A model generated the notes under the pieces. It saw nothing but the letters and a program-made list of their open reading frames with translations, did not search any database and had not been told where the DNA came from. A stretch of 54,249 nucleotides of DNA, filler included, from Catajapyx aquilonaris (Eukaryota): assembly GCA_000934665.2 (NCBI GenBank). It is 2 parts of 2 records of this genome, joined end to end, with 100 filler letters (N's around TTAATTAATTAA, not from the genome) between each part and the next. Parts side by side here need not be neighbours in the genome. Positions count along the whole stretch, not along the records: positions 1 to 27,052 come from JYFJ02005121.1; 1 more part is not named here. One strand, written 5' to 3'. How positions within the stretch are numbered: position 1 is the first letter of the stretch; the number at the start of each line of letters is the position of its first letter. Shown here piece by piece: positions 1,470 through 9,700 of this stretch. Made by a program: the position numbers and the translations under genes.

Positions 1470-4400
1470 TCACACAGAATTGGAGAGGATTGCAGATGCG
1501 GCCGCTGCCATCTGCTTCCCACCAGGGCCGACCTGAGCCCCCGATCTGAACTGGACACCCTCGTGCTGATGGTGTGACCCTAGACCCGAAAGGTGGGTGA
1601 AAAACTCCTCCTTTTCAGCCTGAACAGTAAAGTTGGAGAAACCAAGCGGCTGGAAGAGAGCTGCCACCTGCCGGATTATCTTCTGCTCGCAGGCGTCAGG
1701 GGTCAGCTGGGCATGCAGCGAACCGCACAACACATCCTGCGGAGAAAACGTGTCACTAACGACAATTGTGCGATTTGTAACCGGATATGTACCTGCGAAT
1801 GGGTCCAGAATCTGGGTTGGCGCCATCCGGATATCCCTTGCAGCTGACATGCCGCCTGGAGAGCTCCTTCCACCTTGTTGTCGCCGATCACCGGCGATCT
1901 TAGAAGCAAGACGAGCGAGGACTCCCGGAGCAACGGGACGACAGAGCAGAAGATGAGCGAGGCGATGAACAAGGAGCAGACCGGGTCGGCCCACAGCCAG
2001 CCCATCTGCTGGATAGCCACTGACGACACGATGACTCCAACGCTGCCCAACGTGTCTGCGGAAAATAAACGGGGGTTATATCCAGCTGGTTGTTTCCAGT
2101 TGCGGGTATTACCTGCAACCATGTGGAGAAACACGCCTTCCATGTTGATGTTGTGCGAGTGGCCGTGGTGGGAATGGCCGTGCTGGTGGTTGGAGTGTCG
2201 GAAGGCAGCGATGCCCACCAGGTTTACGCATAGCCCAGCGACGGACACGGCTAGAAGACGGGTCGTGTCCACTTCCGGCGGATCCCACAGGCGGGCCAGA
2301 CCCTCCCAAAACACGCAGACGGACACCACCAGCAGGAACAGCCCGTTCACAAACCCGGACAGGACTTCAACGCGGCCGTACCTGTGGCGAAAACGATATT
2401 AGTAAACGTCGTTTCCCAAGTTGCGTCGCCTTACCCAAACGGGAATGTTTTCGACGGCTTCCATCTGGCCATGACGGCAGCGAACAAACCCAGCACCAAA
2501 GCCGAGCAGTCAAACAGCATGTGGAAACCATCCGATATGAGTCCCAGGCTGTTGGTCCAGAACCCGTAAATGAACTCCACGAACGTAAAAGCTGTAATTG
2601 TTACAATTAGGACATGTTCGGGCATCGTACGTGTAACAAGCGAGTTTACCCAGGTTGAGGCATAGGAAGTAGAAGATCCGGCGGCTGTTCGAGTTGGCCA
2701 GAACCTGCTTCAAAGCCGAGCGGGTGAAGTTGGCTAACGACTGCGAGGTCTGCTGAAGGGCGTCGCTTGTGAAGTTGTACAACGGAAGGCCTTGTGCGGA
2801 GTAGCCAACGAACGACCCTTTGCTGCCGGAACGCCCCTGGGACGTCAGGCTCAGTACGGCTGAAAACGAGTTAGAATAAAAATCCGCACAATGGCCACCA
2901 GCAGCGAATCTCACCGCATATGAACATCAAGCAGCTGAAGACGACTCCTCCGGACAGTCCATGATCCGCCACCTCCGTCACTCCGTCAGGCCACTGCTGC
3001 CACCAGAGGCTTAACGCCAGAGCGATTAGGATAACCGATATTGATGAGATGCGACCAGATAGCGGAAGGTCCAACCTGAAATCGAAGCGGTCATCAACAG
3101 CTCACAACAGTTCGAATCGAACTCACCTTTGCGAACAGAACGACTCGATGTAGAAGTTGGCGACGAATGAGAAGGCGGCGACGTACAGGACGACGAGATA
3201 GGAGCCGCCTTCCTGCTCCGACGCTCCGAGCCACAATATGACGGCCCACGGGATCAGGATCAGGCCCGAGAGCGTCGTGGACAGAGCGTGCATCCGCTTG
3301 GCTCCACCGACCTCGGATGCGACCCGACGACCCAGCGCGTTCACCCCAACTTGCATCAGGACCACGATGCAGAGGAGCACCACTCCGCTCTTGTGATCCG
3401 CAATCCCCATCCACGCCATAAGGTAGTAGAAAAGATGACTAACGCCTGAATGCTGCTGACCCTCCGGATGCGGAGTGTCCACTGTCGCCGCCGTTGCATC
3501 AACAGCGCCGTCGTTATCCAGCACCAACAGTGCGACGATTGCCATTCCGAACAGCACGGCTCCTCGCAGTCGGGTGGGACTGCTGCCGGATTTGCTCCCG
3601 GCGCCGATGCTCAGCACGACGCCGACGATCGCGACGATGGCAATGTCCGGCTGCTCTCCAACGAGGCATGTACGGAGCGGTCCGCACAGCGTCAGGGCGT
3701 ACAGTCGCAGCAGGTGCGCTAGAGTCGACAGCAGCGAATGTAGAGCCAGCATCAGCCAGTCGCCTTCGCCCAATCGGCGACATGACACTGACTTAGTCGC
3801 CGGCTGGGACGCAGCCTGCACGGACAGCGGCCGCTGAAGAAACATGAACACGCATCCGGACCTGCAATACCAACACAATTAATCAACAATTAATCCGCAA
3901 CTTACTGTCGAAAAACGCGAGGTTCAAACGGTACAAAAAGCCGTGTTAACAAATCCATGTAATTTATTCGACTGTAATTACACCGCACTTCACTTTTTTT
4001 CAACAGTTCGACCACCCTGTTGACCTGTTTTCGATTTGTCCAGTAGCTCCTGAACAGCTTCGATCAAAGTCTGAACCGCGTCGCCCGACTTAGCCTCGGG
4101 CGTCATTTTAGCCTGAATTATTTCCATTAGTTTGTCCGGTGTGCAATCGGACGTCACTTCGACCACCTGCGCGGTCGTCCCGCTGTTCGGATAGTCCGGA
4201 AGAAGCTGAATGTCCGATTCGTCCAGCACGATTACCGGTCCTTCCAGTTCCACAGTTTCTTCCTGTGGCTTTAACTTGGTCTGAACCTTCTTAAAAAGGC
4301 CTTCTTTGACGCTCACGAATTCCGGTTCGTCCGACACCGCCACAATTGACTCCACAGCTTCTTCCGTTGTTCTGGTCATAGCTGAGTGCTGGCTTGCGGC

Positions 4401-6757: not shown

Positions 6758-9700
6758 TATCTCGCCCAAGTCGATCCAATTCTTATCTGGGCAGGGGGGG
6801 GAAATAATTATTAGTCGGAATCACACGCTACAACAATGCAACTGGTGCAATGTTCCCCCAACCTGGGCTTGAACCGCCCGTCCACACCAGTGCAGCACCA
6901 GCAGCCAGGCTGGGTCATTCCCAACACAAAACAGGCCCAGGAAATGACGGAAAATGATGGGAAAATTAATAAACAAAAAATATTATTATAATTCCTTATG
7001 GAATGTCCGCCATCTTGGAAATCAAACTTTTCCAATATGGCCGACCTTTTTTTTTTCATGTTCGATTTTTTCGGTTTTTCATGGTTTTTCGCACCTTCTT
7101 TGCCCCGAATTGCATGTATTTTTCGCGTGCAATACTCACCGGTGGTTTCCACTGGACGGACCCCGGTATCCGGAAGGTCCGTACGGGCCACAGTTGGCGC
7201 AGAAATACGGAACAGACGGGGGGAGACAACAACAACAAACGTACGCCGAACTGGAACAAGGAAGAAGAAAAAAAATGAGCAAAAAATCATACCGCACATT
7301 ACATCTTACATTTCAATAAAAATTACAATCAATCAATATTAATTGCTAAAATTGCAACTAATTAATAGTCAATTAAATTTGCGGTTCATCATACGGAACG
7401 CCAGTTCGTTCCGGTTATTTAGCTGCGATCGTTCCTTTGATTAGCGGCCATCTTGGTTCGTTCCTATTGTTAGCGGGAATTTTTGAATTCTTGCTCCAAA
7501 CCGGACCCGGTCTAGACTCGGTCCACTTCTGTAAAAAAAAAACTTATGTAAACTAAATCCACTGAAAAGTATGCGGTTAAGTCAATCATCATAATCAACA
7601 TCGAAGCTGGATTTTTAATTTTTATTTCTCTGGCCCAATAAATGATAATACAATGTTGCCTGCTTTACATTGCAGGGTTGCCAAATAAGTGTCATGGAAA
7701 TTTTACAGCATTAAAATATTTAATGATGCTGCCCAGTATAACATGGCGGCAATAGGCAGAAAGTGTGAAGCGGACAGAAGCGGCGCTGTTGTGATTCCAA
7801 TGCGGGTCGTACACTACTTGTCCTGTACGAAAAATTAGTTAATGACAATCCCATCAAAAAAAAAAAAAATACTTACGTTTAATTGCTTCCGGATATTATC
7901 AGCCTGAACATTCCGGACTTTTATAGTCGACATTGAAACGCCTTTGGTCGTCACGTACTTATCCACACACTTCAGAAGATCTGAAGCAGTCCTGCAAGTA
8001 TTACATGTATTATTGTGCAATTAAAAATAATTGTGTTGTACGTACTGGCAGTCCGTCTTGATATGGCTACTCTTGAATAGTCGAGTAGCTCTCACGGGAA
8101 AGTTTCTCATGCAAAGAGGCGGGCTTCCTGCGCCGTAACACACTGCCGAAAGACACAATATTATTAGATTAATAATTTCAGGCTCATTTTTGTAGTTAAT
8201 GACGGCTCAAGTGAATCTACTACATACATACGTGCTCTGATCATTTATATATACTGTTTAATCTACTCAAATTCGGCCCAACCCTCGACCGATCCTAAAT
8301 AATTCCTGACGGTGTGAATCACATCGTTACGCCTTCGCTAATTATTTCCTCAACTAGTGATTCATGACATATTTTTTCATGCCATTGATATAATTAATTG
8401 TACCGTACTCAGAACAAACTGCTTGTTGTTCAATCACAGAGATAACACAGTGACACGATCAGGACATTTATCTTTCAACCCTTTGTGATAATTAATCAAT
8501 ATTAATTATTACTCTCACGATAATGATCTGAAGTGCGTACTTTGTTCGTTATTACAACTCGAGGGTATGTAAACTGATGTAAACTCTCCAATAATGAATG
8601 GGATGAGTTATTTTTTCAACAGCGCAATTTTTTTCTCCATCTGGCTCCTTTTTTTTTTTAATATGAAAAATTGGCGGCCGAATTTAACTTAACGATGCTT
8701 TCGACATTATCCAAAGTCCAATCAAACTATAGTTGACAATATTTATCTATACTTTCCGTGCTTTTGTCCAATAAGTATGCGCATAACCTCAGCATATTGA
8801 GCAATGAACAATCCGCAAATATATTATCCGTGCATTTTACATCATCAAGTGCGACTAACATATTTAAAGGAGACGAGTTCAACAAACCGGATTAAATAAC
8901 AAACCTAAGCCTGGGATAACATATCAATCGCACACATTTAAGGCAGACATGTTGTCACAGTTACATTCTGCGTATGACATTCACTTTCCAAATAAATTGC
9001 ATGGAAAATGATTGCAAGTCACAGGGTGTTGCTAAGCTGTGCGATCAAGATTGTGTTGGGGATAAACTGTTTAAAACTATAGCTAAAAATCAGAGTTACG
9101 TAAGTATATATGAGTCACGAGTTATCGTCCAAGTCATAAAGTTATGCGCCAGATTAAAATATGCCGTACATATCTTCTCCGAATCAACGAATTACTGATA
9201 CACTGAATTACACTCACGATGATAATGATCTGAATATAGTGCATATACGTAAATTTACATACGGGTAATGTGGGGCACTCGAATATATTACACTGGCGAT
9301 ACGCTTAAAATCAGCTAAATCCATACAGAATTATCTGGCGACTATGTAGTTTAACAATCTTGTACTAGACATATATTAAATAAAATAAATATAATATTGT
9401 TCCATATCTTTCGTGGCCTATTCTTATATATTTTTTTTTGGAAAATTAATTCCAGTATTCAACTTGTGGAAAAAACATTTCATCTTAATTTGGCTAGGAA
9501 ATCCAGAAACTTTGTCTTGCACGAACAGACAATGTGATCAGGGTTGGACTTCTGACCAAATATTTTCTGCATTCCACCGATTTTAAGCCAGTGTAATTCG
9601 AATGCCCCACATTACCCGTATGTAAATTTACGTACACTACTGACACTTCCGTTGCAAACATAGTCATATCTCGAGTGTCAACCCCATAGTCGCCATGCAA

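What the first reader, a model, noticed from the sequence alone, without database searches (positions are those of the whole stretch)
3862..7140. Same-strand zinc-finger gene inside the ZnT5 zinc-transporter intron, entered via an AG|GTAAGA ratchet-like site
Seen: the other ZnT5 coding introns are 51-58 nt, but this one is 2696 nt and holds an intact 419-aa C2H2 ORF on the same strand. Its acceptor (5292-5291) is followed immediately by a strong donor, GTAAGA. Its AATAAA (3968-3963) lies only about 100 nt before the ZnT5 exon-2 acceptor. Splicing ZnT5 coding exon 1 to this acceptor gives CT|G TAA, an immediate stop 5' of the zinc-finger ATG. Established: AG|GT junctions mark recursive-splicing ratchet points, and most nested genes are antisense. 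Inference: one transcription unit may yield either ZnT5 (re-splicing from the regenerated donor, or skipping) or the zinc-finger protein (alternative terminal exon plus intronic polyadenylation). A zinc-responsive switch is conceivable but speculative.
Basis: partly seen in the sequence, partly recalled or inferred. Interest (0 to 1): 0.72.

Follow-up and report, generated by a model that had tools for sequence, protein, structure and literature searches.

The report
Zinc-finger gene sharing ZnT5's first exons
A zinc-finger gene sitting inside an intron of a zinc-transporter gene is spliced onto the transporter's first exons, an arrangement kept across distant arthropods together with an RNA helix that probably decides which of the two messages is made.

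Summary
The sequence observation is correct in every detail. Contigs of one public run, which behave like cDNA, join ZnT5 coding exon 1 (ends 6558) both to ZnT5 exon 2 (3861) and to the acceptor in front of the zinc-finger (ZnF) ORF (5290).

The recursive-splicing idea is not supported. The intron is only 2.7 kb, the AG|GTAAGA motif is not beyond chance, and termite-like relatives have AG|GTTGTG instead.

New here:
- The nesting, in the same intron and on the same strand, is kept in termite-like genomic contigs. It also shows as fused gene models in a mayfly and a crab.
- In both the window and the termites the acceptor lies 40-41 nt before the ZnF ATG, and the ZnT5 reading frame stops 1-3 codons after the junction.
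- Two 18-nt intronic boxes are conserved in both lineages. They pair perfectly on the sense RNA (18 of 18) and bury the ZnF branch-point and polypyrimidine region.

Best reading: a cholinergic-locus-like gene pair whose proximal acceptor is masked by an RNA helix. The scan has noted six other nested genes at other loci of this genome, four said to be spliced onto the host's first exon or exons, but not this locus.

The parts
7140..7251 (-). Observed part of the non-coding leader exon (donor G|GTGAGT after 7140). Its 5' end is not defined.
   Evidence: a contig (record 4) covers 6556-6786 and continues for 112 nt from 7140. The joint 6786>7140 skips 353 nt with GT..AG ends.
6558..6786 (-). Shared exon, which is ZnT5 coding exon 1 (ATG 6757-6755, 66 codons + 2 nt, phase 2, donor CT|GTGAGT).
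   Evidence: translation; 43-48% identical to exon 1 of termite-like ZnT5. One search shows joints from this exon to 3861 and to 5290.
3862..6557 (-). The 2696-nt ZnT5 intron that holds the ZnF gene. On the ZnF path the removed intron is 5291..6557 (1267 nt).
   Evidence: joints 3859>6556 (skips 2696) and 5288>6556 (skips 1267), both GT..AG with the cut shifted by 2.
5670..5687 (-). Box 1 (sense GAAGGGAGTTGATTCAAT), the upstream arm of the conserved long-range helix. A second arm at 5699-5714 pairs with the polypyrimidine tract and the AG.
   Evidence: 18 of 18 pairs with box 2 (16 Watson-Crick + 2 G.U); the next best partner reaches 14; the same box is in 6 of 6 termite-like loci. Searches give the duplex and the fold.
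5306..5323 (-). Box 2 (ATTGAATCAACTCTCTTT), which covers the branch-point and upstream polypyrimidine region of the ZnF acceptor and forms the downstream arm of the helix.
   Evidence: 17 of 18 identical to the termite-like loci at the same place; 0 of 2000 shuffles reach 17..
5285..5305 (-). Rest of the polypyrimidine tract, the acceptor AG (5292-5291), and GTAAGA (5290-5285). TAA at 5289-5287 closes the ZnT5 frame after the junction.
   Evidence: sequence; the acceptor is used; ORF1 is 67 aa and ends 37 nt before the ZnF ATG.
3963..5290 (-). ZnF last exon. The ORF is 5249..3990 (419 aa, 4 C2H2 fingers) and AATAAA lies at 3968-3963. The 3' end itself was not observed.
   Evidence: contig record 3 covers 4015-5288; the N-terminal (..LRR..DFEYY) and C-terminal (VQTLIEA) motifs are shared with orthologues of 580-720 aa, so the ORF is complete.
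3127..3861 (-). ZnT5 coding exon 2, behind a weaker, purine-interrupted acceptor tract (gtgttggtattgcag).
   Evidence: 35-42% identical to SLC30A5 proteins.
1470..3075 (-). Remaining ZnT5 exons, separated by introns of 53-58 nt, down to the stop codon at 1472-1470.
   Evidence: five joints in one 1569-nt contig..

Best explanation
This is one transcription unit that makes two unrelated proteins. It is built like the cholinergic gene locus.

Transcription starts upstream of 7140. The leader exon and ZnT5 coding exon 1 are then spliced in one of two ways:
- to the distal acceptor at 3862/3861, which gives the ZnT5 (SLC30A5-like) zinc-transporter message; or
- to the proximal, intrinsically stronger acceptor at 5292/5291, which brings in a single last exon with the whole 419-aa C2H2 ORF and its own AATAAA.

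Two conserved intronic boxes (5687-5670 and 5323-5306) pair on the sense RNA. Together with a second arm, they bury the branch-point region, the polypyrimidine tract and the AG of the proximal acceptor. When the helix forms, the ZnF exon is skipped and ZnT5 is made. When it does not form, the ZnF message is made.

In the ZnF message the ZnT5 start codon opens a 67-codon ORF that stops right after the junction (CT|G TAA), 37 nt before the ZnF ATG. ZnF is therefore most likely translated by reinitiation. A start site or entry route that contigs cannot show is the alternative.

Shown: both junctions, the nesting and its conservation, and the complementary boxes.
Inferred: that the helix masks the acceptor, that the AATAAA is used, and the route of translation.
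For: 1. Splicing in run X1. All 8 listed joints have GT..AG ends. They include 6558>5290 (a 1305-nt contig over 4015-5288 plus 30 nt of exon 1), 6558>3861 and 7140>6786. Both branch contigs run exactly 30 nt into exon 1. That is what a k=31 graph gives when the only fork lies inside the shared exon (inference).

2. Conserved nesting. Of the 6 termite-like genomic loci (91% aa identity to a Coptotermes protein), 4 have ZnT5 exon 1 upstream and 3 have exon 2 (two of them also exons 3-4) downstream, all on the ZnF strand. The flanks of the other loci are too short to reach those exons. The intron lies at the same position and phase. A mayfly gene model (P0082) reads ZnT5 exon 1, then ZnF, then ZnT5 exon 2 onward. 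A crab model (P0179) reads ZnF, then ZnT5 exon 2 onward.

3. Conserved junction design.
- The acceptor is 41 nt (window) or 40 nt (termite) before the ATG.
- The ZnT5 frame stops after 1 codon (window) or 2 codons (termite).
- ORF1 is 67 or 65 aa.
- The spacer is 37 or 33 nt.

4. The helix.
- Box 2 is 17 of 18 identical between the lineages (0 of 2000 shuffles).
- Box 1 is the best non-coding match in the right order apart from box 2.
- The boxes pair 18 of 18 in the window and in L002, L004, L005 and L006. The next best partners reach 14-15.
- Shuffled introns never reach 18: 0 of 300 for the window and 0 of 100 for L006.
- Both boxes are exact in 6 of 6 termite-like loci.
- Both differences between the lineages keep pairing (G.U/A-U and U-A/U.G).
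- G.U pairs exist only on the sense strand.
- Duplex energy is -50.6 kcal/mol, against -17.7 +/- 6.1 for 224 other intron windows.
- The minimum-energy and centroid folds of the whole segment are closed by this helix in the window (z -4.3) and in L006 (z -5.3).

5. Precedent. Stems that mask a stronger proximal acceptor, and the Nmnat case where the proximal acceptor opens a last exon with a poly(A) site (PMC2724269, passages).
Against: - RNA evidence comes from one run of one study whose kind is not on record, and from contigs only. No single molecule is shown to carry leader, exon 1 and the whole ZnF exon.
- The last 25 nt of the ORF and the 3' UTR have no cover, so use of the AATAAA is unproven.
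- Contigs drop rare forms, so a minor intronic start site cannot be excluded.
- The helix has no double compensatory change; there are only two one-sided changes. Pairing outside the 18-22 bp core differs between and within lineages. No probing or mutation exists.
- A helix that always formed would silence ZnF, so a control that I cannot name is needed.
- Reinitiation after 65-67 codons is usually inefficient, and the leader holds 5 upstream ATGs.
- The six water-flea-like loci showed no ZnT5 exon and no such helix in their short flanks.
Confidence: 0.6

Rival explanations
1. AG|GTAAGA is a recursive or re-splicing site. Exon 1 is first joined to 5290, and the regenerated donor CT|GTAAGA is then spliced to 3861. 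ZnT5 message would arise in two steps, and polyadenylation would compete with re-splicing.
For: - The motif is there, and the first-step junction exists.
- The regenerated donor (GTAAGA behind the same exon end) looks as good as the gene's other donors.
- Re-splicing at exon starts is known for Ubx micro-exons (recalled, not read here).
Against: - Fly recursive sites are described as restricted to very long introns and are common above 40 kb (PMC6110457, passages). This intron is 2.7 kb, or 8.8 kb in the termite-like loci.
- The donor-like hexamer is not kept: all 6 termite-like loci have GTTGTG, and only GT is shared.
- The motif count in the window is within chance.
- The TAA inside GTAAGA also ends the ZnT5 frame, a feature that the termites keep by other letters.
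- In the window the GT is inside the predicted helix.
- Contigs cannot show lariats or intermediates, so this is untested rather than refuted.
Confidence: 0.12
2. The ZnF gene is an ordinary nested gene with its own promoter in the intron. The 6558>5290 junction is a by-product: a poison or terminal-exon isoform of ZnT5 that is not the source of ZnF protein.
For: - The spliced message puts 5 ATGs and a 67-codon ORF in front of the ZnF ATG, which is a poor design for translation.
- Contigs cannot show starts and drop rare forms.
Against: - The contig runs through the acceptor into exon 1 without a fork, and a joint spans the stretch upstream of 5290, which has no cover.
- The acceptor, its distance to the ATG and the immediate stop are kept in termite-like loci. 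A by-product would not explain this.
- The in-frame stop at 5321-5319 lies in the removed intron.
Confidence: 0.1
3. Boxes 1 and 2 are conserved for a reason other than pairing with each other. For example, each could be a protein-binding splicing element, or the pair could be an old inverted-repeat relic.
For: - There is no double compensatory substitution.
- Box 2 would be constrained anyway as a branch-point and polypyrimidine region.
- The window also has a related purine-rich stretch next to box 1.
Against: - Two 18-mers stay mutually complementary in two distant lineages.
- The only two changes both preserve pairing, and the G.U pairs work only on the sense RNA.
- The boxes close the minimum-energy and centroid folds in both lineages.
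- The loops between them (about 345 and 640 nt) do not align, which argues against a conserved mobile element.
Confidence: 0.12

Closest known systems
Cholinergic gene locus (unc-17/VAChT inside the first intron of cha-1/ChAT); unc-60 of C. elegans
   Same: Two different proteins come from one promoter. The inner gene lies in an intron of the outer gene on the same strand, shares the 5' exon by alternative splicing, and has its own 3' end (PMC3875643, passage read). The arrangement is deeply conserved.
   Different: - Here the shared part includes the host's start codon and 66 codons, so the inner message carries an upstream ORF that ends at the junction. In the worm the shared exon is untranslated.
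- I recall, but could not read, that the fly locus also shares the ChAT start (Kitamoto 1998, not held).
- The two products here are linked only by the word zinc, not by a shown pathway.
Su(var)3-9 / eIF2-gamma fused locus of insects
   Same: A single gene-specific exon of an unrelated gene sits in a conserved intron of a housekeeping-type gene. It is kept for about 400 million years across insect orders (PMC1435931, abstract read).
   Different: From recall, that case shares the N-terminal residues in frame, whereas here the host frame is stopped at once and the ZnF protein starts at its own conserved Met.
Long-range intronic stems that steer acceptor choice in Drosophila (Atrophin, CG33298, Nmnat; Raker et al. 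2009)
   Same: Conserved complementary intronic boxes more than 150 nt apart mask or weaken the stronger proximal acceptor. In Nmnat the proximal acceptor opens a last exon with a poly(A) site (PMC2724269, abstract and passages).
   Different: - Here the alternative last exon encodes a whole different gene.
- The boxes are kept between a termite-like lineage and the window's distant arthropod, not only within one genus.
- There has been no experimental test.
Recursive splice sites (ratchet points) of long fly introns
   Same: Juxtaposed acceptor and donor motifs around AG|GT, and a junction of the upstream exon to that site (PMC6110457, passages).
   Different: The intron is short, the donor half is not conserved, the site starts an expressed exon that is kept in the message, and no intermediate was seen.
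Other same-strand nested genes in this genome noted by the scan (COP1/LAP3, YIPF5/PLEKHM2, SWI5/TAMM41, ITFG1/GTF3C4; THUMPD2/CNTROB, PITRM1/METTL25)
   Same: The same kind of architecture occurs at other loci of the same genome (AI notes, unchecked).
   Different: None of these notes concerns this locus. The lines shown do not mention a conserved helix at the acceptor.

Membership tests
Shared-5'-exon nested gene pair (cholinergic-locus type) | The inner gene lies wholly inside an intron of the outer gene, on the same strand. | tested here: met
   the ZnF ORF (5249..3990) lies inside intron 6557..3862 of the ZnT5-like gene, on the minus strand.
Shared-5'-exon nested gene pair (cholinergic-locus type) | The inner gene's message carries the outer gene's 5' exon(s) through splicing. 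| tested here: met
   joint 6558>5290 in a 1305-nt contig (30 nt of exon 1 on it), and exon 1 joined to the leader exon in another contig. This is one run, and full-length molecules were not seen.
Shared-5'-exon nested gene pair (cholinergic-locus type) | The inner gene ends at its own poly(A) site inside the host intron. | tested here: inconclusive
   AATAAA lies at 3968-3963, but no contig covers 3860-4014.
Shared-5'-exon nested gene pair (cholinergic-locus type) | The arrangement is conserved in relatives. | tested here: met
   exon 1, ZnF and exon 2 lie in order on one strand in L004, L005 and L006 (exon 1 also in L002); fused mayfly and crab gene models.
Long-range RNA structure controlling an alternative acceptor (Raker et al. 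type) | Two conserved, mutually complementary intronic boxes lie far apart. | tested here: met
   18 of 18 pairs in the window and in four termite-like loci. Both boxes are exact in 6 of 6 termite-like loci, and they lie about 345 and 640 nt apart.
Long-range RNA structure controlling an alternative acceptor (Raker et al. type) | A box overlaps or flanks the regulated splice site. | tested here: met
   Box 2 ends 14 nt (window) or 12 nt (termite-like loci) before the AG. The extended duplex covers the tract and the AG.
Long-range RNA structure controlling an alternative acceptor (Raker et al. type) | Covariation supports pairing. | tested here: inconclusive
   There are two one-sided, pair-keeping changes, no double change and no disruptive change. 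A formal count on one alignment failed because MAFFT misplaced the window's box 1.
Long-range RNA structure controlling an alternative acceptor (Raker et al. type) | Opening the stem changes splice choice, and compensatory changes restore it. | not testable with these tools
   This needs minigenes or genome editing.
Recursive splice site (ratchet point) | Juxtaposed strong acceptor and donor motifs at AG|GT. | tested here: met
   ctctttgtctcccctctttAG|GTAAGA. However, the count of such motifs in the window is within chance.
Recursive splice site (ratchet point) | It lies in a very long intron. | tested here: not met
   The intron is 2696 nt, against 'restricted to very long introns' and 'most > 40 kb' (PMC6110457).
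Recursive splice site (ratchet point) | The donor half is conserved. | tested here: not met
   GTTGTG in 6 of 6 termite-like loci.
Recursive splice site (ratchet point) | Second-step lariat or saw-tooth in nascent RNA. | not testable with these tools
   Only contigs of one run were available.
Dicistronic message with reinitiation | Two non-overlapping ORFs lie on one mature message, with a short spacer. | tested here: inconclusive
   ORF1 is 67 or 65 aa and the spacer is 37 or 33 nt in the assembled exon order. The contigs overlap by only 30 nt, so one molecule is inferred rather than seen.
Dicistronic message with reinitiation | The second ORF is translated from that message. | not testable with these tools
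   This needs ribosome profiling or reporters.

The most novel reading that the evidence does not exclude
The ZnT5/ZnF pair is an ancient pancrustacean two-gene unit whose output is actively switched. The conserved helix at the ZnF acceptor would be opened or closed in response to a cellular signal, with zinc status as the obvious candidate. The ZnF protein would be made only by reinitiation after ribosomes translate the ZnT5 N-terminal ORF, and it would act as a dedicated regulator of zinc handling. Transporter and regulator would then be coupled at transcription, splicing and translation.

Both genes are present in hemimetabolous insects and crustaceans, and neither appears among the named Holometabola hits. 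That fits inheritance or loss as a unit.
Probability: 0.12. Interest if true: 0.85.

Novelty: new member of a known kind. Interest (0 to 1): 0.58.

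Why it matters
- It adds a well-documented case to the small set of animal loci where two unrelated proteins share a promoter and 5' exons. The case has direct junction evidence and conservation across very distant arthropods.
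- It offers a concrete, testable element for how the choice is made: an 18-bp intronic helix over the proximal acceptor, kept letter for letter in two distant lineages. How the ratio is set is still open for the cholinergic locus (PMC3875643).
- It explains why gene predictors fuse the ZnF gene with ZnT5 (mayfly and crab models); the window's own ZnF protein was not among the database hits either, though no protein of this genome was.
- It gives the zinc field an uncharacterised, conserved C2H2 protein that is physically tied to ZnT5.

Tried and rejected
- No RNA holder was listed by the look-up of sequencing runs. The single holder, X1, has no kind on record. I treat it as cDNA-like only because of its joints.
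- There is no cover over 3860-4014 in X1, so the ZnF 3' end and use of the AATAAA could not be checked.
- The junction 7140>5290 is not listed. Contigs drop rare forms, so this is not evidence of absence.
- Contig depths were not used to rank the isoforms.
- No whole genome is held for this window, so relatives could not be searched that way.
- The water-flea-like loci L007-L012 gave nothing. No ZnT5 exon was found by tblastn or by an HMM (0 of 6), and no above-background duplex was found at the putative acceptor of L008 and L009. Their flanks are short, so this is inconclusive.
- A formal pair count on one alignment was abandoned because MAFFT aligned the window's box 1 to the wrong column. 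I kept to the direct counts.
- The Rfam scan of 3700-7400 gave only a chance tmRNA fragment (E 0.32).
- An N-terminal extension of ZnF is open through the junction in the window (ATG 6591-6589, 444 aa, weak context). It is impossible in the termite-like loci, where the two frames coincide and a stop intervenes. I rejected it as a conserved feature.
- Literature: two searches for SLC30A5/ZnT5 with nested, zinc finger, bicistronic or dicistronic listed nothing on this pairing. The library lacks most subscription journals.
- Kitamoto et al. 1998 on the fly cholinergic locus is not held. Three papers that cite it gave no structural description.
- Earlier scan notes by place, by words and by sequence had nothing on this locus.

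Full report
**What is in the sequence**

All features lie on the minus strand.

- A ZnT5-like gene runs from a leader exon that ends at 7140 to a stop codon at 1472-1470. It has a Cation_efflux domain, and its named relatives are SLC30A5.
- Coding exon 1 is 6786..6558. Its ATG is at 6757, and the exon ends in phase 2 with CT|GTGAGT. Exon 2 starts at 3861. The intron between them is 2696 nt, whereas the other six coding introns are 51-58 nt.
- Inside the big intron lies an intact 419-aa ORF (5249..3990) with C2H2 fingers. It is preceded by a pyrimidine-rich tract and AG at 5292-5291. GTAAGA follows at 5290-5285, and AATAAA lies at 3968-3963.
- Joining 6558 to 5290 gives CT|G TAA.

The AG|GTRAG motif behind a pyrimidine tract is not in itself beyond chance. 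There are 2 such sites in the window, against 0.7 +/- 0.86 in 200 block shuffles.

**RNA evidence**

One public run (X1) holds 43% of the sampled words of 3000-7300. It is kept as Logan contigs, and its kind is not on record. Laid on 1100-9000, 27 of its 85,611 contigs fit.

All 8 listed joints have GT..AG ends:
- five short ZnT5 introns;
- the 353-nt leader intron (7140>6786);
- the 2696-nt intron (6558>3861);
- a 1267-nt skip that joins 6558 to 5290.

The last joint sits in a 1305-nt contig that covers 4015-5288 with no differing letter. The run therefore behaves as cDNA of the same organism.

The ZnF contig and the exon-2 contig each run exactly 30 nt into exon 1. A k=31 assembly graph gives this when the only fork is inside the shared exon. 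That is, no second abundant partner of the ZnF acceptor and no abundant unspliced form were present. This is my inference, and contigs do drop rare forms.

The junction 7140>5290 is not listed. The ZnF 3' end is not covered.

**The ZnF protein is complete and old**

Its relatives (69 hits at E <= 0.001 among 8000 scored candidates) include proteins of 580-720 aa from cockroaches, termites, a locust, a stick insect, a mayfly and a water flea.

In the alignment these share the fingers (65-79% identity). They also share the N-terminal motif around ..LRR..D(E/S)DFEYY, right behind the first Met, and the C-terminal VQTLIEA motif. So the window's ORF starts at the conserved Met and is not a fragment of a longer fused protein. 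It simply lacks much of the poorly conserved middle.

**The nesting is conserved**

A scan of metagenome contigs with the ZnF alignment gave 14 loci.

Six of them (L001-L006) encode a protein 91% identical to the Coptotermes one, on a single coding exon. tblastn and a ZnT5 profile gave these results:
- ZnT5 exon 1 lies upstream on the same strand in 4 of the 6 loci (L002, L004, L005, L006).
- Exon 2 lies downstream in 3 (L004, L005, L006), followed by exons 3 and 4 in L004 and L006.
- The flanks of the other loci are too short to reach those exons.
- The intron is at the same profile position (61|66) and in the same phase.

A search with a conserved ZnT5 exon turned up two gene models that carry both zf-C2H2 and Cation_efflux domains:
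- In the mayfly model P0082 the order is ZnT5 exon 1 (its residues 18-53 equal residues 1-36 of the mayfly's ZnT5 model P0078), then ZnF (141-492), then ZnT5 exon 2 onward (524-).
- In the crab model P0179 the order is ZnF (373-580), then ZnT5 exon 2 onward (777-).

Predictors fuse the two genes because they lie on one strand inside one another. The arrangement therefore goes back at least to the common ancestor of decapods and insects.

The six water-flea-like loci have short flanks and showed no ZnT5 exon. That is inconclusive.

Named ZnT5 and ZnF hits both come from hemimetabolous insects and crustaceans, and neither list holds a holometabolous insect. The searches are word-limited, so this is only a hint of joint loss. 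The window's own organism has no close relative in the collection; the best ZnT5-exon identity is 72%.

**The junction design is conserved, but the donor-like hexamer is not**

In all six termite-like loci the ZnF ATG is preceded by ...ATTGAATCAGCTCTCTTTCTTTGCTTGTAG|GTTGTGAAGG, with 40 nt from the acceptor to the ATG. The window has 41 nt.

Termite exon 1 ends TTG GT|GTAAGT. Joined to the ZnF exon it reads GT|G TTG TGA. So the ZnT5 frame again stops at once.

| Feature | Window | Termite-like |
|---|---|---|
| ORF1 length | 67 aa | 65 aa |
| Spacer before the ZnF ATG | 37 nt | 33 nt |

Only GT is shared behind the AG. The termite GTTGTG is a poor donor. In the window the letters GTAAGA also supply the TAA. 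What is conserved is therefore an early stop and the spacing, not a regenerated donor.

**A conserved helix over the acceptor**

- Box 2. The 18 nt ATTGAATCARCTCTCTTT (window 5323-5306) are 17 of 18 identical between the lineages, at the same place in front of the acceptor. No shuffle of 2000 reached 17, and none of 21 other real intron windows did (maximum 14).
- Box 1. A search for the motif found a second copy in reverse orientation at 5670-5687. On the sense RNA this is GAAGGGAGTTGATTCAAT.
- Pairing in the window. Box 1 pairs with box 2 at 18 of 18 positions (16 Watson-Crick, 2 G.U). The next best partner in the pre-mRNA reaches 14.
- Pairing in the termite-like loci. They have AAAGGGAGTTGATTCAAT about 640 nt upstream of box 2, again with 18 of 18 pairs (L002, L004, L005, L006; next best 15). 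Both boxes are exact in 6 of 6 loci.
- Shuffles. Shuffled introns never reach 18: 0 of 300 for the window (maximum 16) and 0 of 100 for L006 (maximum 17).
- Substitutions. The two differences between the lineages both keep pairing (G.U against A-U, and U-A against U.G). The G.U pairs would be mismatches on the other strand.
- Other conservation. Apart from the ZnF coding region, the two boxes are the only non-coding matches between the two introns that keep the same order and are not AT-rich low-complexity sequence.
- Extended duplex. In the window a second arm (5714-5699) pairs with the rest of the tract, the AG and the first GT. The duplex energy is -50.6 kcal/mol, against -17.7 +/- 6.1 (minimum -33.7) for 224 other intron windows. 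In the termite-like loci the extended duplexes are -41 to -46 kcal/mol.
- Whole-segment folds. Folding the whole segment gives a minimum-energy and a centroid structure closed by this helix, both in the window (446 nt, z -4.3, 0 of 100 shuffles) and in L006 (723 nt, z -5.3, 0 of 20).
- Limits. Pairing outside the 18-22 bp core is not the same in the two lineages, nor among the termite-like loci. There is no double compensatory change.

**How it most likely works**

The ZnF acceptor is proximal and has a long, clean pyrimidine tract. The exon-2 acceptor is distal, and in the window it has a purine-interrupted tract. Left alone, the proximal site should win, and ZnT5 would not be made.

Box 1 is transcribed first and can capture box 2 as it emerges. 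That hides the branch-point region, the tract and the AG, so exon 1 is joined to exon 2. When the helix fails to form or is opened, exon 1 is joined to the ZnF exon, and the transcript presumably ends at its AATAAA.

This is the logic shown by mutation for Drosophila Atrophin, CG33298 and Nmnat. In Nmnat the proximal acceptor likewise opens a last exon with a poly(A) site (PMC2724269, abstract and passages).

The ZnF message then carries the ZnT5 start and a 67-codon ORF that ends 37 nt before the ZnF ATG. With 5 upstream ATGs, leaky scanning is unlikely. Reinitiation is the simplest route, although it is usually inefficient after so long an ORF. This step is inferred and is the weakest part of the model.

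**Comparison with what is known**

- The architecture is that of the cholinergic gene locus and of unc-60 (PMC3875643, passage).
- It also matches the Su(var)3-9/eIF2-gamma locus, where a gene-specific exon sits in a conserved intron for about 400 million years (PMC1435931, abstract).
- It differs from the worm cholinergic locus because the shared part is coding for the host and is closed by a stop at the junction.
- It differs from Su(var)3-9 because no residues are shared.
- As a recursive site it fails two of the tested defining features, intron length and conservation of the donor half (PMC6110457, passages).
- Notes of this scan list six other same-strand nested genes in this genome, four said to be spliced to the host's first exon or exons (unchecked). 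So the architecture is not rare here.
- Nothing was noted before on this locus. Two literature searches found nothing on a ZnT5/zinc-finger pairing.

**Verdict**

- The ratchet mechanism is unsupported and unlikely.
- The zinc switch remains speculation.
- The new findings are the deep conservation of the nesting and of the junction design, and the conserved helix over the ZnF acceptor, which gives a concrete and testable mechanism.
- This is a new member of known kinds, of moderate to good interest.

Noticed in passing
window 6589-6591 (minus strand): An ATG in exon 1, in another frame than ZnT5 and in weak context, is in frame with the ZnF ORF through the 6558>5290 junction. That would give a 444-aa form with 25 extra residues. 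It is not possible in the termite-like loci.
   Followed up: partly
window 6116-6430: Part of the big intron has very high contig depth in X1 (224) and many loose ends, as a transcribed repeat family would. Next to it, at about 5880-6250, lie AT-rich near-tandem repeats built on aattgcaaacaa.
   Followed up: no
window 1-600: A long, nearly perfect inverted repeat (foldback or MITE-like element) lies downstream of the ZnT5 3' end.
   Followed up: no
window 7172-7785: X1 gives low cover upstream of the observed leader exon, including a 250-nt contig at 7536-7785. This could be a further upstream exon, a longer leader or another transcript.
   Followed up: no
L008 180-235 and L009 420-477: In two water-flea-like loci the conserved sequence in front of the ZnF ATG begins behind ..ccgcAG, 43 nt before the ATG, and reads A TAA... 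This is the same 'one letter then stop' pattern as in the window if a phase-2 exon is joined there. No ZnT5 exon was found in the short flanks. A convergent glycosidase-like ORF lies downstream.
   Followed up: partly
P0082 (mayfly) and P0179 (crab), protein records: These public gene models fuse the ZnF and ZnT5 coding regions into one protein. They are most likely prediction artefacts caused by the nesting.
   Followed up: partly
window 10757-11785 and 13127-13786 (minus strand): Two further C2H2 zinc-finger ORFs lie upstream of the ZnT5 unit. A second pyrimidine-tract AG|GTGAGT motif sits at 13808 on the plus strand.
   Followed up: no
window 24438-26953 (minus strand); 53745-54248 (plus strand): There are long TPR_12/TPR_10 repeat ORFs (659 and 216 aa) and a weak PIF1-like helicase fragment at the window's end, possibly from a Helitron-type element.
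   Followed up: no
L001-L006, about 50 nt behind box 1: The termite-like loci have a weaker second copy of the box-1 core (AAGAATTGATTC) just downstream of box 1. The window has a related purine-rich stretch just upstream of its box 1. These are possible competing arms.
   Followed up: no
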